From Parcubacteria group bacterium (lineage in GTDB: Bacteria; Patescibacteriota; Minisyncoccia; Moranbacterales; UBA9337), in NCBI GenBank assembly GCA_041662245.1, contig JBAZSW010000005.1, positions 1 to 50,444 on the forward strand: a DNA stretch of 50,444 bases, written 5' to 3'. Both the position numbers and the translations under genes were made by a program. The notes under the pieces are model-generated. The model saw only the letters and a program-made list of their open reading frames with translations, made no database searches and had not been told where the DNA came from. Of the stretch, positions 31,713-48,228 are shown piece after piece. Each line of letters begins with the position of its first letter. Position 1 is the stretch's first letter.

Positions 31713-31789
31713 GTCATTTCGACCGGATAAATTTTTGCCTGTCATGTTGAATAACATGGTACTCAAAAATTTAGAAGTGGAGAAATCTC
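31713..31789 (+). mobile_element. MITE-like dispersed element, family GTCATTTCGAC...GGAGAAATCTC (copy A1)
   Basis: About 93% identical to the reverse complement of 48152..48228. Internal hairpin CATGTTGAATAACATG. Confidence 0.7.
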
Positions 31790-42668: not shown

Positions 42669-42962
42669 TTAGAATCTGTTTCCTCCTCTGAAACCACCGC
42701 GATCTTCTCGTGGTTGCATTGGACGAGCTTCGTTTACTGTTAGTTTTCTTCCTTCTAACTCTTGGCCATTGAACATATCAATAGCTTTTTGAGCTTCTTC
42801 ATCGGCAGACATTTCAACGAATCCAAAACCTTTGCTTCGACCAGTAGCTTTATCATTGATGATAACTGCTGATTCGACTGCTCCAGCTTGTGCGAAAAGT
42901 TGATTTAAATCTGCATCCTTAAGTGTATAAGGAAGATTTCCAACATATAATTTCTTTGCCAT
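42669..42962 (-). CDS. RRM-type RNA-binding protein
   Basis: RNP-2 LYVGNL and RNP-1 KGFGFVEM, with an RGG-like tail. Confidence 0.9.
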   Translation of the reverse strand: MAKKLYVGNLPYTLKDADLNQLFAQAGAVESAVIINDKATGRSKGFGFVEMSADEEAQKAIDMFNGQELEGRKLTVNEARPMQPREDRGGFRGGNRF

Positions 42963-43182
42963 ATTTGCTTTTAACTATTTATAAAATAAATTATAGATAG
43001 CTAATTTGTTGTATTTTACTATCTTGCTTCGACCGCGTACTAAACTCATTAATGAATTAAACGAAAAGATGCACGAACAAGTTGCTATTATTGTAGCAGA
43101 GAGGGGAGAATTATGCAATAAAATTGATGAATTATGAATTAAGAATTTGGGAATATGAGAATTTGGGAATTTAAAAAATACT

Positions 43183-43218
43183 GTCGTTGCGAAACGTTAC
43201 TCCGTCGTAGCAATCTAG
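43183..43218 (+). repeat. short dispersed-repeat variant (GTCGTTGCGAA...GTAGCAATCTAG)
   Basis: Same end architecture as the GTCAT...ATCTC family. Confidence 0.4.
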
Positions 43219-43265
43219 AATTTAATTTCTAATAACTTAATTTTCAATTTATGTACTGCAAGTGT

Positions 43266-43350
43266 GTCATTTCGACTCGACTCGCTAAAGCTACTGCGAA
43301 GCGGACTGGATAAATATTTGTACTCAAGTATTTAGCAGTGGAGAAATCTA
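43266..43350 (+). mobile_element. MITE-like dispersed element, copy A2
   Basis: GTCATTTCGACTCGACTCGC...TTTAGCAGTGGAGAAATCTA. The ends and internal ATAAAT..TACTCA..TTTAG blocks match A1. Confidence 0.6.
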
Positions 43351-43450
43351 TCGAGTTGTTAAAATTTATTAAAAAATATTTAAAAACCCCATTAAATAAG
43401 CTATAAATCGTAAATTTTGGGTTTAAAATAAATAGATTGTTTCAGGGGTA

Positions 43451-43479
43451 TTGACAAGATTTGGATAGTGTGCTATGTT
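43451..43479 (+). promoter_or_regulatory. consensus-like promoter of module 1: TTGACA, 17-nt spacer, TATGTT
   Basis: Read directly from the sequence. Confidence 0.6.
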
Positions 43480-43568
43480 CGAGTGTCGATAGGGGAGAGG
43501 GTTATTGTTGATGTCGATAATAAGCACATTCAAATTTAAAGGATTAAGGTATATTCAAACGAGGTAAG

Positions 43569-43650
43569 ATGTGATGGGAAAAATGAGTTTTTCTTGTCTC
43601 GCCATAGTTTTAACGAAGGCGGATGGATGAATTTATTTTTCCCATCGCAT
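43569..43650 (+). ncRNA. conserved long leader hairpin, module 1 (18-bp stem ATGTGATGGGAAAAATGA / TTATTTTTCCCATCGCAT)
   Basis: The two G-U pairs are valid only on the + strand. The paralogous hairpin at 44285..44343 has compensatory changes. Confidence 0.6.
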
Positions 43651-43735
43651 CCAGAATCGGAGCGACCCTCGGGAGTAACCCTAAAAGTCCCCAGCACGAA
43701 CGCTTGGGGAGAAAATTCCAAAAGGAGGAATTGCT

Positions 43736-43873
43736 ATGCACCAGAGAACAACGATGAGAAAAAATATTTTTTATTTCGCCATTGATGCCACCGGTCAGTT
43801 GGGCCCGTTCAACACCTTTATGATGAAAAAAATTCCTTCGATGCTACCGGTCCTGTCGCCCCCCTCGGCGTAG
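43736..43873 (+). CDS. candidate 45-codon GC-rich small ORF (module 1)
   Basis: SD AAAGGAGG lies 7 nt before the ATG. MHQRTTMRKNIFYFAIDATGQLGPFNTFMMKKIPSMLPVLSPPSA, TAG at 43871. The codon style is unlike the rest of the window, so it may be non-coding. Confidence 0.35.
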   Translation: MHQRTTMRKNIFYFAIDATGQLGPFNTFMMKKIPSMLPVLSPPSA

Positions 43874-44089
43874 CTACGGCCCCGTTTCTGTGCCCCCGAG
43901 AAGAGATTGAAATCTCGGGCGCACATTCATCGGCCTGATTGGATTACTGATTATATTCGCTGGACATTATTTCAGGACGCCTGAATAATGGTTGAAGGGG
44001 GATACATGAGGTAACTTACTCGGTATTTTTTACGAAGGTCCATCTGTCTCAGGTGGATATCGAAATTAAAAAATATCGGAAACACAATC

Positions 44090-44126
44090 AAAAAGGATAT
44101 TAACCTAACGGTTCAATATCCTTTTT
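44090..44126 (+). terminator. intrinsic terminator of module 1
   Basis: AAAAAGGATATT-aacctaacggttc-AATATCCTTTTT. Confidence 0.7.
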
Positions 44127-44209
44127 AATTTGATTAAAAATAAATAAAGAGTAGGCGAAACTTTGAATTTAAAATCTAAAAGGATTAGAGAAGTTTAATC
44201 GTGGACTAT

Positions 44210-44238
44210 TTGACAGCCAAATAACTTTTTGCTAATAT
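44210..44238 (+). promoter_or_regulatory. consensus-like promoter of module 2: TTGACA, 17-nt spacer, TAATAT
   Basis: Read directly from the sequence. Confidence 0.6.
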
Positions 44239-44284
44239 TAATTTAGTTATTTGAAAGAAAAAAGTTTAAAAATATTCGTGAGAA

Positions 44285-44343
44285 ATGTGACAGGGAAAAA
44301 TGATTTTTTTAGTAACGCAAAGAATTTATTTTCCTTGTCGCAT
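44285..44343 (+). ncRNA. conserved long leader hairpin, module 2 (ATGTGACAGGGAAAAATGA / TTTATTTTCCTTGTCGCAT)
   Basis: Same flanks as module 1 (ATGTGA...TCGCAT), with GATGGG/CCCATC replaced by GACAGGG/CCTTGTC. Confidence 0.6.
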
Positions 44344-44434
44344 TTGAGTCAGAGACATTTCTGATCATGACGATCAAGGGTGGAAGTATAACCGATTTTT
44401 TTTGTTGTAACCTTCGCAAAAGGAGATCACCGTT

Positions 44435-44593
44435 ATGAAACACTCATTCCCACCCACCCACCATTCAGCAATCGTGTATATCCAGGTTGAAACCCCGATC
44501 GCTGCCGGCGCAACCAACATGGAAGCGTGTGCCCTGGCCCCCACTGATGCCGTCAAGATTACCGCTCCCTTGCAGACTGGCCTGCTGATCTGA
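44435..44593 (+). CDS. candidate 52-codon GC-rich small ORF (module 2)
   Basis: SD AAAAGGAGA lies 9 nt before the ATG. MKHSFPPTHHSAIVYIQVETPIAAGATNMEACALAPTDAVKITAPLQTGLLI, TGA at 44591. GC-rich codons are atypical for this window. Confidence 0.35.
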   Translation: MKHSFPPTHHSAIVYIQVETPIAAGATNMEACALAPTDAVKITAPLQTGLLI

Positions 44594-44664
44594 TACCGTG
44601 CCGTGTAAATGTTTTTGACTTTTTTTAACTGGTATATTTTTTATACCGTATCTTTGCAGAGGAT

Positions 44665-44697
44665 GGGATACCAAGCTAACGCTAGGTATCCCTTTTT
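44665..44697 (+). terminator. intrinsic terminator of module 2
   Basis: GGGATACC-aagctaacgcta-GGTATCCC-TTTTT. The T-run is present only on the + strand. Confidence 0.75.
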
Positions 44698-44725
44698 ATT
44701 TTAAAATAAATTTAAAATTGTTGGC

Positions 44726-45124
44726 TTATCTAGTAATTCCAAAATAATCTAAAGTTGGCATAATATTGGGAGCGAGATTTTCGCTTGCGAGATTTTCTAG
44801 TGAAATCCATTTCCACTCTCTGATATCTGCTCCTTGTTTTATTTCGCCAATTCTTTGGGCTAGGTAATGAACGAGGATGACATCGATTTTTCCGTCAGGA
44901 GTTTCTTTTGTGGCGTGAAATAAAAATGGATTTTCATCTAAGATTTCTAGTTCAATTCCCATTTCTTCCTTGGTTTCTCTTTTCGCTGCTTCAATTAAGT
45001 TATCATCAAAATCTTCCACTCTTCCACCACAAAATTTCCAAAACTCTGTGTCCCCGTGTTGATTAAGTAGAACTTTGTTATCCTCTATGATAACCGGACC
45101 AGAGGCGATGATTATTTTATTCAT
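44726..45124 (-). CDS. Nudix hydrolase
   Basis: Complete Nudix box GGRVEDFDDNLIEAAKRETKEEMGI. Confidence 0.85.
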   Translation of the reverse strand: MNKIIIASGPVIIEDNKVLLNQHGDTEFWKFCGGRVEDFDDNLIEAAKRETKEEMGIELEILDENPFLFHATKETPDGKIDVILVHYLAQRIGEIKQGADIREWKWISLENLASENLAPNIMPTLDYFGITR

Positions 45125-45167
45125 ATATTTGAGATTAATTATTATCTTTTATCGACTATTGTTTTTT

Positions 45168-45244
45168 GTCATCCCAGAAAATAGAATTTCTTAGCGATCC
45201 GCCAGCCAGCGGAGAGCGGTAGAAATTCATTTATGTGGGATCTC
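45168..45244 (+). mobile_element. dispersed-repeat variant (GTCATCCCAG...GTGGGATCTC), copy A3a
   Basis: End motifs are of the same family, with an internal GC-rich CCGCCAGCCAGCGGAGAGCGG. Confidence 0.45.
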
Positions 45245-45250
45245 ATTTTA

Positions 45251-45303
45251 GATTCCTCCACTTCTAAATTTCTGAGTACAGAAATTTATGCGGTCGGAAT
45301 GAC
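45251..45303 (-). mobile_element. MITE-like dispersed element, truncated copy A3b
   Basis: GATTCCTCCACTTCTAAATTTCTGAGTAC...ATGCGGTCGGAATGAC matches A1/A4 but lacks the central hairpin. Confidence 0.6.
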
Positions 45304-45637: not shown

Positions 45638-45976
45638 ATGAAAAATAGAGAAATACCTCGTTCTTATTACGATGAAGTTAAGAACGCAATTTATTGGGGT
45701 GAGATTTTGCCTAAACTTGGGATAAGATTAAAAAAAGTTAATAGAGCTGGATTGACCAGTCGTATTTGGAATTATAGGTGTAAATGTATTTTTCATAAAG
45801 AAAAAACGGCCTCACTAACATTTTTTGATAAAACAGGAACTTTTCATTGTTATGGTTGCGGAGAAAGTGGTGATATTTTTTACTTTATTTCCCGGTATTT
45901 AACAGATAATAAACGTAGCTTGCCGAGAGTTTGTAGGTGGCTAAAAAAATGTTTTAACATTCCTCTGCCTTGGTAA
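45638..45976 (+). CDS. stand-alone CHC2 (DnaG-primase-type) zinc-finger protein
   Basis: CKCIFHKEKTASLTFFDKTGTFHCYGCGESGDIFYFI matches CxxHxEKTPS...HCFGCGxxGD. 112 aa with no TOPRIM domain. SD is GAGGTG. Confidence 0.75.
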   Translation: MKNREIPRSYYDEVKNAIYWGEILPKLGIRLKKVNRAGLTSRIWNYRCKCIFHKEKTASLTFFDKTGTFHCYGCGESGDIFYFISRYLTDNKRSLPRVCRWLKKCFNIPLPW

Positions 45977-48151: not shown

Positions 48152-48228
48152 GAGATTCCTCCGCTTCTAAATTTTTGAGTACCATGTTATTCAACATGAC
48201 AGGCAAAAATTTATACGGTCGGAATGAC
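48152..48228 (-). mobile_element. MITE-like dispersed element, copy A4
   Basis: Its reverse complement is about 93% identical to 31713..31789. Confidence 0.7.

What the first reader, a model, noticed from the sequence alone, without database searches (positions are those of the whole stretch)
43569..43650. Leader hairpin conserved between the two modules with compensatory base changes
In module 1, ATGTGATGGGAAAAATGA pairs with TTATTTTTCCCATCGCAT as an 18-bp stem with 2 G-U pairs. In module 2 (44285..44343), ATGTGACAGGGAAAAATGA pairs with TTTATTTTCCTTGTCGCAT. The flanks ATGTGA and TCGCAT and the GGGAAAAAT core are conserved. The internal GATGGG/CCCATC is replaced by GACAGGG/CCTTGTC on both arms, and the apical parts differ in length (46 and 21 nt). 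The G-U pairs would be C-A mismatches on the opposite strand, so the structure belongs to the + transcript. Covariation across only two copies is suggestive, not proof.
Basis: seen in the sequence. Interest (0 to 1): 0.6.

Follow-up and report, generated by a model that had tools for sequence, protein, structure and literature searches.

The report
Conserved RNA hairpin leading small-ORF cassettes
A long RNA stem-loop, kept intact by compensating mutations, sits in front of small, fast-changing, unusually GC-rich peptide genes in a few tiny groundwater bacteria; it is probably a control point for processing or stability of these messages and matches no catalogued RNA family.

Summary
Both hairpins (43569-43650 and 44285-44343) fold far better than shuffles, and better on the + strand than on the - strand.

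I found eight more copies in six other genomes of the same order of small-genome (Moranbacteria-like) bacteria, ten copies in seven genomes in all. On nine of them, 95.5% of stem cells pair and 8 of 22 pairs change on both sides; 0 of 500 shuffles reach either value. All ten fold better on the + strand and carry 3-7 G-U pairs.

The stem ("P1") lies behind strong promoter-like sites and 72-93 nt ahead of a strong ribosome-binding site and a small ORF. Nine of these ORFs are orphans of 23-62 aa. Their GC3 is 0.51-0.65 against a genome mean of 0.26. The tenth encodes a 93-aa beta-flower protein.

P1 matches no Rfam family. It is not a terminator, not an RBS-masking switch and not a multicopy repeat, and the genome has no reverse transcriptase. 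RNase III is encoded.

Best reading: a cis-acting double-stranded RNA element in the 5' leader, most likely an RNase III processing or stability site. The mechanism is inferred, not shown. The cassette is dispensable and is lost in two genus members. Its apex is inverted in one species.

The parts
43451..43479 (+). Promoter-like site of module 1: consensus -35 hexamer, 17-nt spacer, extended -10
   Evidence: 10 of 12 matches, TG before the -10. The same site is conserved in G006, G004 and G003. The number of promoter-like sites in the region is not above shuffles (8 against 8.5), so the support is conservation and position, not the scan.
43569..43650 (+). P1 hairpin of module 1 (the finding): 22 continuous pairs plus a structured apex
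43587..43632 (+). Apical segment of P1, module 1. It is dispensable: absent from the short forms and inverted in G006.
   Evidence: the G006 apex read as reverse complement is 43 of 47 identical, against 31 of 49 on the same strand. The short forms have 5-7-nt loops. G004 carries an extra GC palindrome at the tip.
43651..43735 (+). Leader between P1 and the small ORF (85 nt), with small hairpins and a strong Shine-Dalgarno at 43724-43728
43736..43873 (+). Small ORF of module 1: 45 aa, orphan, GC3 0.62, with an A7 run at 43826-43832
43874..44130 (+). 3' part of module 1. It has blocks conserved in G004 and G003 and ends in a terminator-like hairpin at 44086-44130.
   Evidence: (I8).
44210..44238 (+). 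Promoter-like site of module 2
   Evidence: It is nearly identical in G039, which belongs to another family.
44285..44343 (+). P1 hairpin of module 2
44344..44434 (+). Leader between P1 and the small ORF (91 nt), with a Shine-Dalgarno at 44422-44425
44435..44593 (+). Small ORF of module 2: 52 aa, orphan, GC3 0.65
   Evidence: A relative in run X2 has an in-frame 3-letter insertion in it.
44665..44700 (+). Terminator-like hairpin with T run that closes module 2
   Evidence: Read. The simple scan did not list it.

Best explanation
P1 is a cis-acting RNA stem-loop in the 5' leader of stand-alone small-ORF expression cassettes. Each cassette has a strong promoter, P1, a leader of about 70-90 nt, a strong ribosome-binding site, a small GC-rich ORF and a terminator. 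The cassettes occur in one order of small-genome groundwater bacteria. Shown here: the stem is conserved as a structure of the + strand RNA, it is 20-24 pairs long in its minimal form, and it keeps a conserved base (four pairs including an invariant U-G wobble) and a conserved 11-nt core. It is independent of the RBS. Inferred: P1 acts as a double-strand-specific processing or stability determinant. The cell's RNase III most likely cuts the stem, or a double-strand RNA-binding protein holds it. That would fix the 5' end and the lifetime of the small-ORF message and so set how much peptide is made. This would resemble the RNase III-processed 5' UTR hairpin of Staphylococcus aureus cspA mRNA.
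For: Structure and strand:
- One search gives z -8.4 and -5.9 for the two window copies.
- (9 copies) gives 95.5% of cells paired and 8 of 22 pairs with changes on both sides, with 0 of 500 shuffles as high and slid controls at 36-61%.
- One search shows all 10 copies more stable on the + strand, each with 3-7 G-U pairs.

Position:
- P1 lies downstream of promoter-like sites.
- It lies 72-93 nt upstream of a strong SD and start codon in all 10 copies.

Length:
- The short forms have 20-24 pairs capped by 5-7-nt loops. By recalled textbook knowledge this is about the two helical turns that RNase III needs.
- Apical insertions and an apical inversion are tolerated, as expected if the double-stranded stem is what matters.

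Enzyme:
- An RNase III gene is present in the same genome (144 bits, 231-aa open frame).

Precedent:
- RNase III cleavage of a 5' UTR hairpin stabilises S. aureus cspA mRNA and enhances its translation (PMC3386247; abstract and passages read).

Independence from the payload:
- In G333 the same leader precedes a different gene, a 93-aa beta-flower protein. P1 therefore behaves as a portable expression element.
Against: - No transcript data exist for these organisms in the runs on offer, so neither the RNA ends nor any cleavage is shown.
- The conserved sequence goes beyond what a purely double-strand-specific nuclease would require. This covers the 11-nt core, the four-pair base and the invariant U-G wobble in 9 of 9 aligned copies. 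It hints at a sequence-specific partner.
- In G026 and in the third G333 copy the stem is broken by internal loops into runs of 9-13 pairs.
- The leader ahead of P1 varies from about 11 to about 90 nt. P1 is therefore not a simple 5'-terminal cap on the primary transcript.
Confidence: 0.4

Rival explanations
1. P1 is the binding site of a sequence-specific RNA-binding regulator (a translational repressor or activator, an antiterminator, or an RNA chaperone). The regulator would co-control a small regulon of small-protein genes. The double strand presents the conserved core and the U-G wobble to the protein.
For: - The 11-nt core and the four-pair base are nearly invariant across three families, while neighbouring stem positions covary.
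- The U-G wobble at the fourth pair is kept in 9 of 9 aligned copies.
- In G333, P1 heads unlinked loci with unrelated payloads.
Against: - No candidate protein was identified.
- The neighbours differ between families: RRM protein and NUDIX in the genus and partly in G039, other genes in G026 and G333.
- One copy changes the core with compensation. That argues for shape over sequence.
Confidence: 0.25
2. P1 is a passive stabiliser. It is a very stable stem that blocks 5'-to-3' exonucleolytic decay or shields the message after the unstructured leader is trimmed, with no cleavage and no specific partner.
For: - Stability is high (-19.6 to -44.9 kcal/mol).
- The AU-rich stretch ahead of P1 varies in length.
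- The payloads use rare GC-ending codons (GC3 0.51-0.65 against a genome mean of 0.26). That could make the messages slow to translate and in need of protection.
Against: A passive barrier would not need the conserved core, the conserved base or a constant minimal length. By recalled knowledge, known 5' stabilisers sit within a few nucleotides of the 5' end, which is not the case for the primary transcripts predicted here.
Confidence: 0.15
3. The inverted repeat works at the DNA level, as a cruciform, an operator or a recombination site. The RNA fold would be a by-product.
For: - The apex is inverted between G000 and G006.
- A relative in run X2 carries the module-1 type apex inside module-2 type arms (joints 44295 to 43580 and 43628 to 44322).
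- So the arms do recombine as DNA.
Against: - 3-7 G-U pairs per copy, all on the + strand, would be mismatches in a cruciform and on the other strand.
- Spacing between the half-sites varies from 5 to over 60 nt, unlike a dimer operator.
- No recombinase or reverse transcriptase lies nearby, and no RVT_1 is found in the genome.
Confidence: 0.07
4. P1 is a ribosome-sensing element. The foot of the stem begins with a start codon followed at once by a stop in 6 of 10 copies, or by a five-codon frame ending at the conserved in-stem stop in 4 of 10. A ribosome loading there would open the stem.
For: This is read from the ten sequences printed. Three genus copies have an SD-like purine run 4-5 nt before that start.
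Against: Most copies outside the genus lack any SD before it. The start is buried in a stem of 20 or more pairs. The frame relation follows from the conserved arm length and is not independent evidence.
Confidence: 0.05
5. The hairpins are chance inverted repeats or copies of a small mobile palindromic element, without function.
For: The genome is AT-rich and other long inverted repeats occur in the window. The apical segment looks like an inserted palindrome, and short pieces of it match other contigs in runs X1 and X3.
Against: - There are only two copies in the genome, and the apical segment has one partial relative.
- P1 holds the same position relative to promoter and SD in three families.
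- Covariation is above the controls.
Confidence: 0.03

Closest known systems
RNase III-processed 5' UTR hairpin of Staphylococcus aureus cspA mRNA (PMC3386247; abstract and passages read)
   Same: Both are long hairpins in the 5' UTR of a short, strongly expressed gene, placed upstream of the RBS. In cspA, cleavage gives a shorter, more stable and better translated message. An RNase III gene is present here too.
   Different: There is no sequence likeness. Cleavage is untested here. P1 does not pair with the RBS region, whereas the cspA authors discuss relief of an inhibitory structure at the RBS. The payloads here are orphan peptides, not a cold-shock protein.
5'-UTR cis-acting RNA element targeted by RNase III in Haemophilus influenzae phase variation (PMC12721329; only the search listing and the start of the abstract seen)
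   Same: A structured 5' UTR element and RNase III act together on a variable locus.
   Different: That system depends on an intergenic simple sequence repeat, and none lies in or beside P1. The paper's details were not read.
5' stem-loop stabilisers of bacterial mRNAs (ompA, ermC and aprE leaders; recalled, no call)
   Same: A stable leader hairpin that prolongs message life.
   Different: Those sit at the very 5' end. P1 lies about 11-90 nt behind the predicted start and carries conserved sequence.
Type I toxin-antitoxin modules with structured toxin mRNA leaders (hok/sok, aapA/isoA, zorO/orzO; recalled, no call)
   Same: Tandem small-ORF modules, long structured 5' leaders, patchy and dispensable distribution.
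   Different: The peptides have no membrane-helix-like stretch: the maximal 19-residue hydropathy is -0.46 to 0.91. No antisense promoter-like site lies in the modules.
Small inversions of hairpin loops between inverted repeats, as described for chloroplast non-coding DNA (recalled, no call)
   Same: The apex of P1 is flipped between two species while the arms stay in place.
   Different: This concerns the evolution of the DNA, not the function of P1.

Membership tests
Any Rfam 15 family | Score at or above the family's gathering threshold | tested here: not met
   (whole window): only 5 tRNAs. (43000-44800, permissive): the hairpins hit only eukaryotic miRNA-precursor models far below threshold (27.7 against 83 bits; 21.4 against 72 bits).
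RNase III substrate | Near-continuous double strand of about two helical turns (about 20 bp or more) | tested here: met
   20-24 pairs in the short forms and 22 continuous pairs in module 1. In G026 and the third G333 copy the stem is interrupted by internal loops.
RNase III substrate | RNase III encoded by the organism | tested here: met
   Ribonucleas_3_3, 144 bits, at C4:83071-83466.
RNase III substrate | Staggered cleavage in the stem, in vivo or in vitro | not testable with these tools
   No RNA run holds the stretch.
Intrinsic terminator or attenuator | GC-rich stem followed directly by a U run | tested here: not met
   no T run follows either copy, and the scan lists no terminator there. 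The sequences after P1 in all copies lack a U tract.
RBS-masking riboregulator or RNA thermometer | Complementarity of an arm of the element to the SD/start region | tested here: not met
   duplex energies of either arm with the RBS window are within shuffles in all copies (z -1.8 to +1.0; 3' arm in all 10 copies, 5' arm in 9).
Retron msr-msd or DGR template | Reverse transcriptase in the genome or locus; for a DGR, a second near-copy of the variable stretch | tested here: not met
   no RVT_1 in the 100%-complete genome; the GC-rich stretches have no second copy in the genome.
CsrB/RsmZ-type protein sponge | CsrA partner encoded | tested here: not met
   no CsrA in the genome.
MITE/REP-type dispersed palindromic repeat | Many copies at unrelated places | tested here: not met
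   two copies; one partial relative of the apical segment.
Type I toxin-antitoxin | Hydrophobic membrane-helix peptide and an antisense or overlapping small RNA | tested here: not met
   maximal 19-residue hydropathy below 1.0 in all ten; no - strand promoter-like site inside the modules. Weak promoters could be missed.

The most novel reading that the evidence does not exclude
The P1-led cassettes may be a lineage-specific system for making rapidly diversifying small peptides in candidate-phyla-radiation bacteria. The payload is kept at a GC content foreign to the genome and turns over almost completely between species. The long inverted repeat would do double duty, as an RNA control element and as a DNA recombination substrate that flips, swaps and reshuffles cassette parts. 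Three events of this kind were seen here: an inverted apex, transfer of the apex between the two modules in a relative, and a chimeric small ORF between two G333 contigs.
Probability: 0.12. Interest if true: 0.75.

Novelty: new variant of a known kind. Interest (0 to 1): 0.45.

Why it matters
If the reading holds, P1 is a new, clade-restricted cis-regulatory RNA motif in bacteria that cannot yet be grown alone and for which almost no post-transcriptional regulation is known. It also marks a set of small, orphan, compositionally odd peptide genes that gene callers and protein databases miss. The module-2 peptide has no relative among 5.8 billion clusters or 1.84 billion representatives. A motif model (R2) now exists to find more of them. 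The stem is simple enough for direct tests with recombinant RNase III and with reporter fusions.

Tried and rejected
Known RNA families. Rfam at gathering threshold and at permissive threshold gave nothing. The tmRNA gene lies elsewhere, on C7.

Retron or DGR. The genome has no reverse transcriptase and no second copy of the GC-rich stretches.

CsrB-like sponge. The genome has no CsrA.

Dispersed repeat. The genome has two copies only. The apical segment has one partial relative.

Terminator. No U tract follows the stem.

RBS-masking switch. Neither arm is complementary to the RBS beyond shuffles.

Likeness to the 16S processing stem of the same genome. None was seen by eye.

Phage origin. No match in 50,697 phage records. 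Plasmids were not searched.

Peptide families.
- Pfam on 6 peptides gave nothing above cut-off; there was one weak TM231 hit at E 0.04.
- NCBIfam on 7 proteins gave nothing.
- The word-indexed protein search found only the query itself, for the module-2 peptide and for one G333 peptide.
- The full HMMER scan of 1.84 billion representatives found only the query itself.
- The ESM Atlas gave only scores of 0.81-0.82, which is chance level.

Other GC-rich SD-led small ORFs in the own genome. None was found among 17 small GC islands inspected of 75 islands listed.

Beta-flower gene in the own genome. None was found, but the control rang in no genome, so this says little.

Expression. No RNA holder was listed for the stretch.

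More copies.
- The metagenome scan gave 11 stretches. Three are true copies and all three are identical to the G003 locus.
- The genome-contig scan gave 108 stretches, of which 80 were listed. Four of the 80 are true copies. The 28 unlisted stretches were not seen.
- The class-level sample outside the order gave one weak hit (G162, E 0.005), which I did not inspect.
- Five weak order-level hits (G009, G017 twice, G081, G128, G138) and two f6 hits (G352, G065) were inspected and dropped. They are unrelated hairpins or terminators that lack the conserved base and core.

Literature. Searches for 'Moranbacteria' with 'small peptide' and for 'Parcubacteria' with 'structured RNA' and 'intergenic' returned nothing relevant. 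I found no printed description of this motif in those two searches. Supplements were closed and were not consulted.

Full report
**What is in the window**

The stretch between an RRM-type RNA-binding protein gene (42669-42962, - strand) and a small NUDIX hydrolase gene (44726-45124, - strand) holds two tandem units on the + strand. Each unit has:
- a promoter-like site with a consensus -35 hexamer, a 17-nt spacer and an extended -10 (43451-43479 and 44210-44238);
- the hairpin of the finding (43569-43650 and 44285-44343);
- a leader of 85 or 91 nt;
- a strong Shine-Dalgarno with a start codon (small ORFs 43736-43873, 45 aa, and 44435-44593, 52 aa);
- a terminator-like hairpin (44086-44130 and about 44665-44700).

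The genome has 33% G+C. The small-ORF stretches reach 58-62% in 100-nt windows.

**The observation**

- Module 1 folds to -39.4 kcal/mol (z -8.37) and module 2 to -22.3 kcal/mol (z -5.94). No shuffle out of 200 does as well.
- The reverse strands give -23.6 and -11.2 kcal/mol.
- The own genome (1,124,432 bases, 11 contigs, 100% complete) has exactly these two copies.
- Rfam has no family for them.

**More copies**

DNA search in relatives, two covariance models (R1, R2), pattern scans of public genomes and metagenomes and inspection gave ten copies in seven genomes.

| Genome | Copies | Family |
|---|---|---|
| G000 (own) | 2 | f1, same genus |
| G003 | 1 | f1, same genus |
| G004 | 1 | f1, same genus |
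| G006 | 1 | f1, same genus |
| G026 | 1 | f6 |
| G039 | 1 | f9 |
| G333 | 3 | f9 |

Public record titles name two of these genomes Candidatus Moraniibacteriota and one a Parcubacteria-group bacterium.

Denominators:
- Order sample: 11 of 151 genomes had a hit at E 0.01 or better, and 6 of those are true copies on inspection.
- Family f1: 4 of 22.
- Family f9: 2 of 71.
- Family f6: 3 of 30 with hits, of which 1 is true.
- Class sample, mostly outside the order: G000 plus one weak hit that I did not inspect, of 151.

P1 was thus found in only a few genomes of each sample and, apart from that one uninspected weak hit, only within this order.

**Structure and strand**

- On the alignment of nine copies (A5; the tenth was found later), 95.5% of 198 cells pair.
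- 8 of 22 pairs show changes on both sides, against a shuffle mean of 3.1. The covariation score is 0.328 against 0.211. No shuffle of 500 reaches either value.
- With the partners slid by 1-3 columns only 36-61% of cells pair. Some double changes in columns 16-19 reflect a one-base register shift in two copies.
- The clearest compensations are at pairs 5-7 of the stem base and in the distal stem.
- Seven pairs never vary, including a U-G wobble at the fourth pair (9 of 9).
- The tenth copy (G333, contig 68) changes the otherwise invariant core on both arms and still pairs.
- All ten copies fold better on the + strand and have 3-7 G-U pairs.

**Anatomy**

- The minimal form is a stem of 20-24 pairs with a 5-7-nt loop (G003, G039, G333).
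- Module 1, G004 and G006 carry an extra apical segment of about 46 nt that is itself a weak hairpin.
- In G006 this segment is the reverse complement of the G000 segment: 43 of 47 identical, against 31 of 49 on the same strand. The apex was therefore inverted between the stem arms.
- G004 has a further GC palindrome at the tip.
- A relative in a second groundwater run carries the module-1 type apex between module-2 type arms (one 617-nt contig; joints 44295 to 43580 and 43628 to 44322).
- The apex is therefore dispensable and the arms recombine as DNA.
- P1 ends 72-93 nt before the start codon in all copies, and a small second hairpin usually follows it directly.
- Neither arm is complementary to the RBS beyond chance.
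- No U run follows the stem.

**The payloads**

- The first ORF behind P1 is 23-62 aa in nine copies. It has no Pfam or NCBIfam match in the eight of these peptides that were scanned; the G006 and G039 ones were not.
- The module-2 peptide has no relative in two very large protein collections.
- None of the ten has a membrane-helix-like stretch.
- GC3 is 0.51-0.65, against a mean of 0.26 and a maximum of 0.44 in 428 long frames of the own genome.
- ORF length alone is weak evidence in GC-rich DNA. Translation is supported in three other ways. The strong SD and start are conserved in all ten copies. The relative in run X2 has an in-frame three-letter insertion, with one- and two-letter indels only after the stop (some rows of that table were not shown). 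Modules of G000 and G004 keep the same start and stop while reading the middle in different frames (my reading).
- By my codon reading, the seven substitutions in the module-2 ORF are 2 synonymous and 5 non-synonymous. The peptide sequence is therefore under little purifying constraint.
- In G333 one copy of P1 precedes a 93-aa five-fold beta-flower protein (PF21785, E 1.8e-12). This fold has no known function (PMC10584680, passages read).

**Dispensability**

In the same genus, G008 and G005 have the RRM and NUDIX genes adjacent with no module between them. G008 keeps only the tail of the module's terminator, so the module was deleted there. G003 has a second module without P1.

**Mechanism**

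The following are shown:
- P1 is a + strand RNA stem in the leader, conserved in shape.
- It has a constant minimal length and a conserved foot and core.
- It is independent of the RBS and portable between payloads.

The following is inferred. P1 is a double-strand-specific processing or stability determinant, most likely cut by RNase III, whose gene is present. The precedent is the cspA leader of S. aureus, where such a cut stabilises the message and raises translation (PMC3386247).

I put this at about 0.4. The conserved sequence suggests that a specific RNA-binding partner is nearly as likely (0.25). A passive decay barrier (0.15), a DNA-level role (0.07), a start-stop ribosome sensor at the stem foot (0.05) and chance or a mobile palindrome (0.03) follow.

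**Novelty**

The kind of element, a regulatory leader stem-loop, is well known. This motif, its clade, and its link to compositionally foreign, fast-changing small ORFs are not in Rfam and did not turn up in my two literature searches. I rate it a new variant of a known kind, of moderate interest.

Noticed in passing
window 42963-43130: The stretch upstream of the RRM RNA-binding protein gene (- strand) is 81-92% identical at the DNA level across the genus, together with the gene (9 of 9 genomes matched). It is probably a conserved 5' UTR of that gene.
   Followed up: partly
window 43826-43832: There is an A7 run inside the module-1 small ORF. G004 has A8 at the homologous place, and a relative in run X2 lacks two letters near 43824. 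The G000 and G004 ORFs share start and stop but read the middle in different frames. This could be slippage-prone or simply unconstrained.
   Followed up: partly
window 43874-44130; L004 340-605; L159 6985-7245: The 3' part of module 1 has sequence blocks conserved in G004 and G003, with a possible long-range pairing and hairpins (37 predicted pairs, 7 with changes on both sides, only 3 sequences). It might be a functional 3' UTR or a 3'-derived small RNA.
   Followed up: partly
window 31728-31773 and 48168-48213: The same hairpin, with 21-nt arms and a 4-nt loop, occurs twice in opposite orientation 16.4 kb apart.
   Followed up: no
L165 (G333 contig 68), downstream of the third G333 hairpin: A 93-aa protein with a five-fold beta-flower match (PF21785) shares the P1 leader with the orphan peptides.
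   Followed up: partly
L058 and L059 (two G333 contigs): The flanks are nearly identical, but one contig has two small ORFs and the other a single ORF. The 3' end of the single ORF equals that of the second ORF on the other contig. This looks like a recombinant or deletion variant. The genome bin has 8% contamination, so these may be two strains.
   Followed up: partly
own genome C2:94000-127500: About 33 kb of repeated GC-rich islands (53-57% against 33% for the genome), many inside very long open frames.
   Followed up: no
window 43170-43340 and 45160-45300: These are short GC-richer palindromic stretches of a kind that also flanks the modules in G004 and G006. They look like small repeated elements.
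   Followed up: no
window 45638-45976: A 112-aa ORF with a CHC2-type zinc-finger look (primase-like N-terminus, judged by eye only) lies just beyond the NUDIX gene.
   Followed up: no
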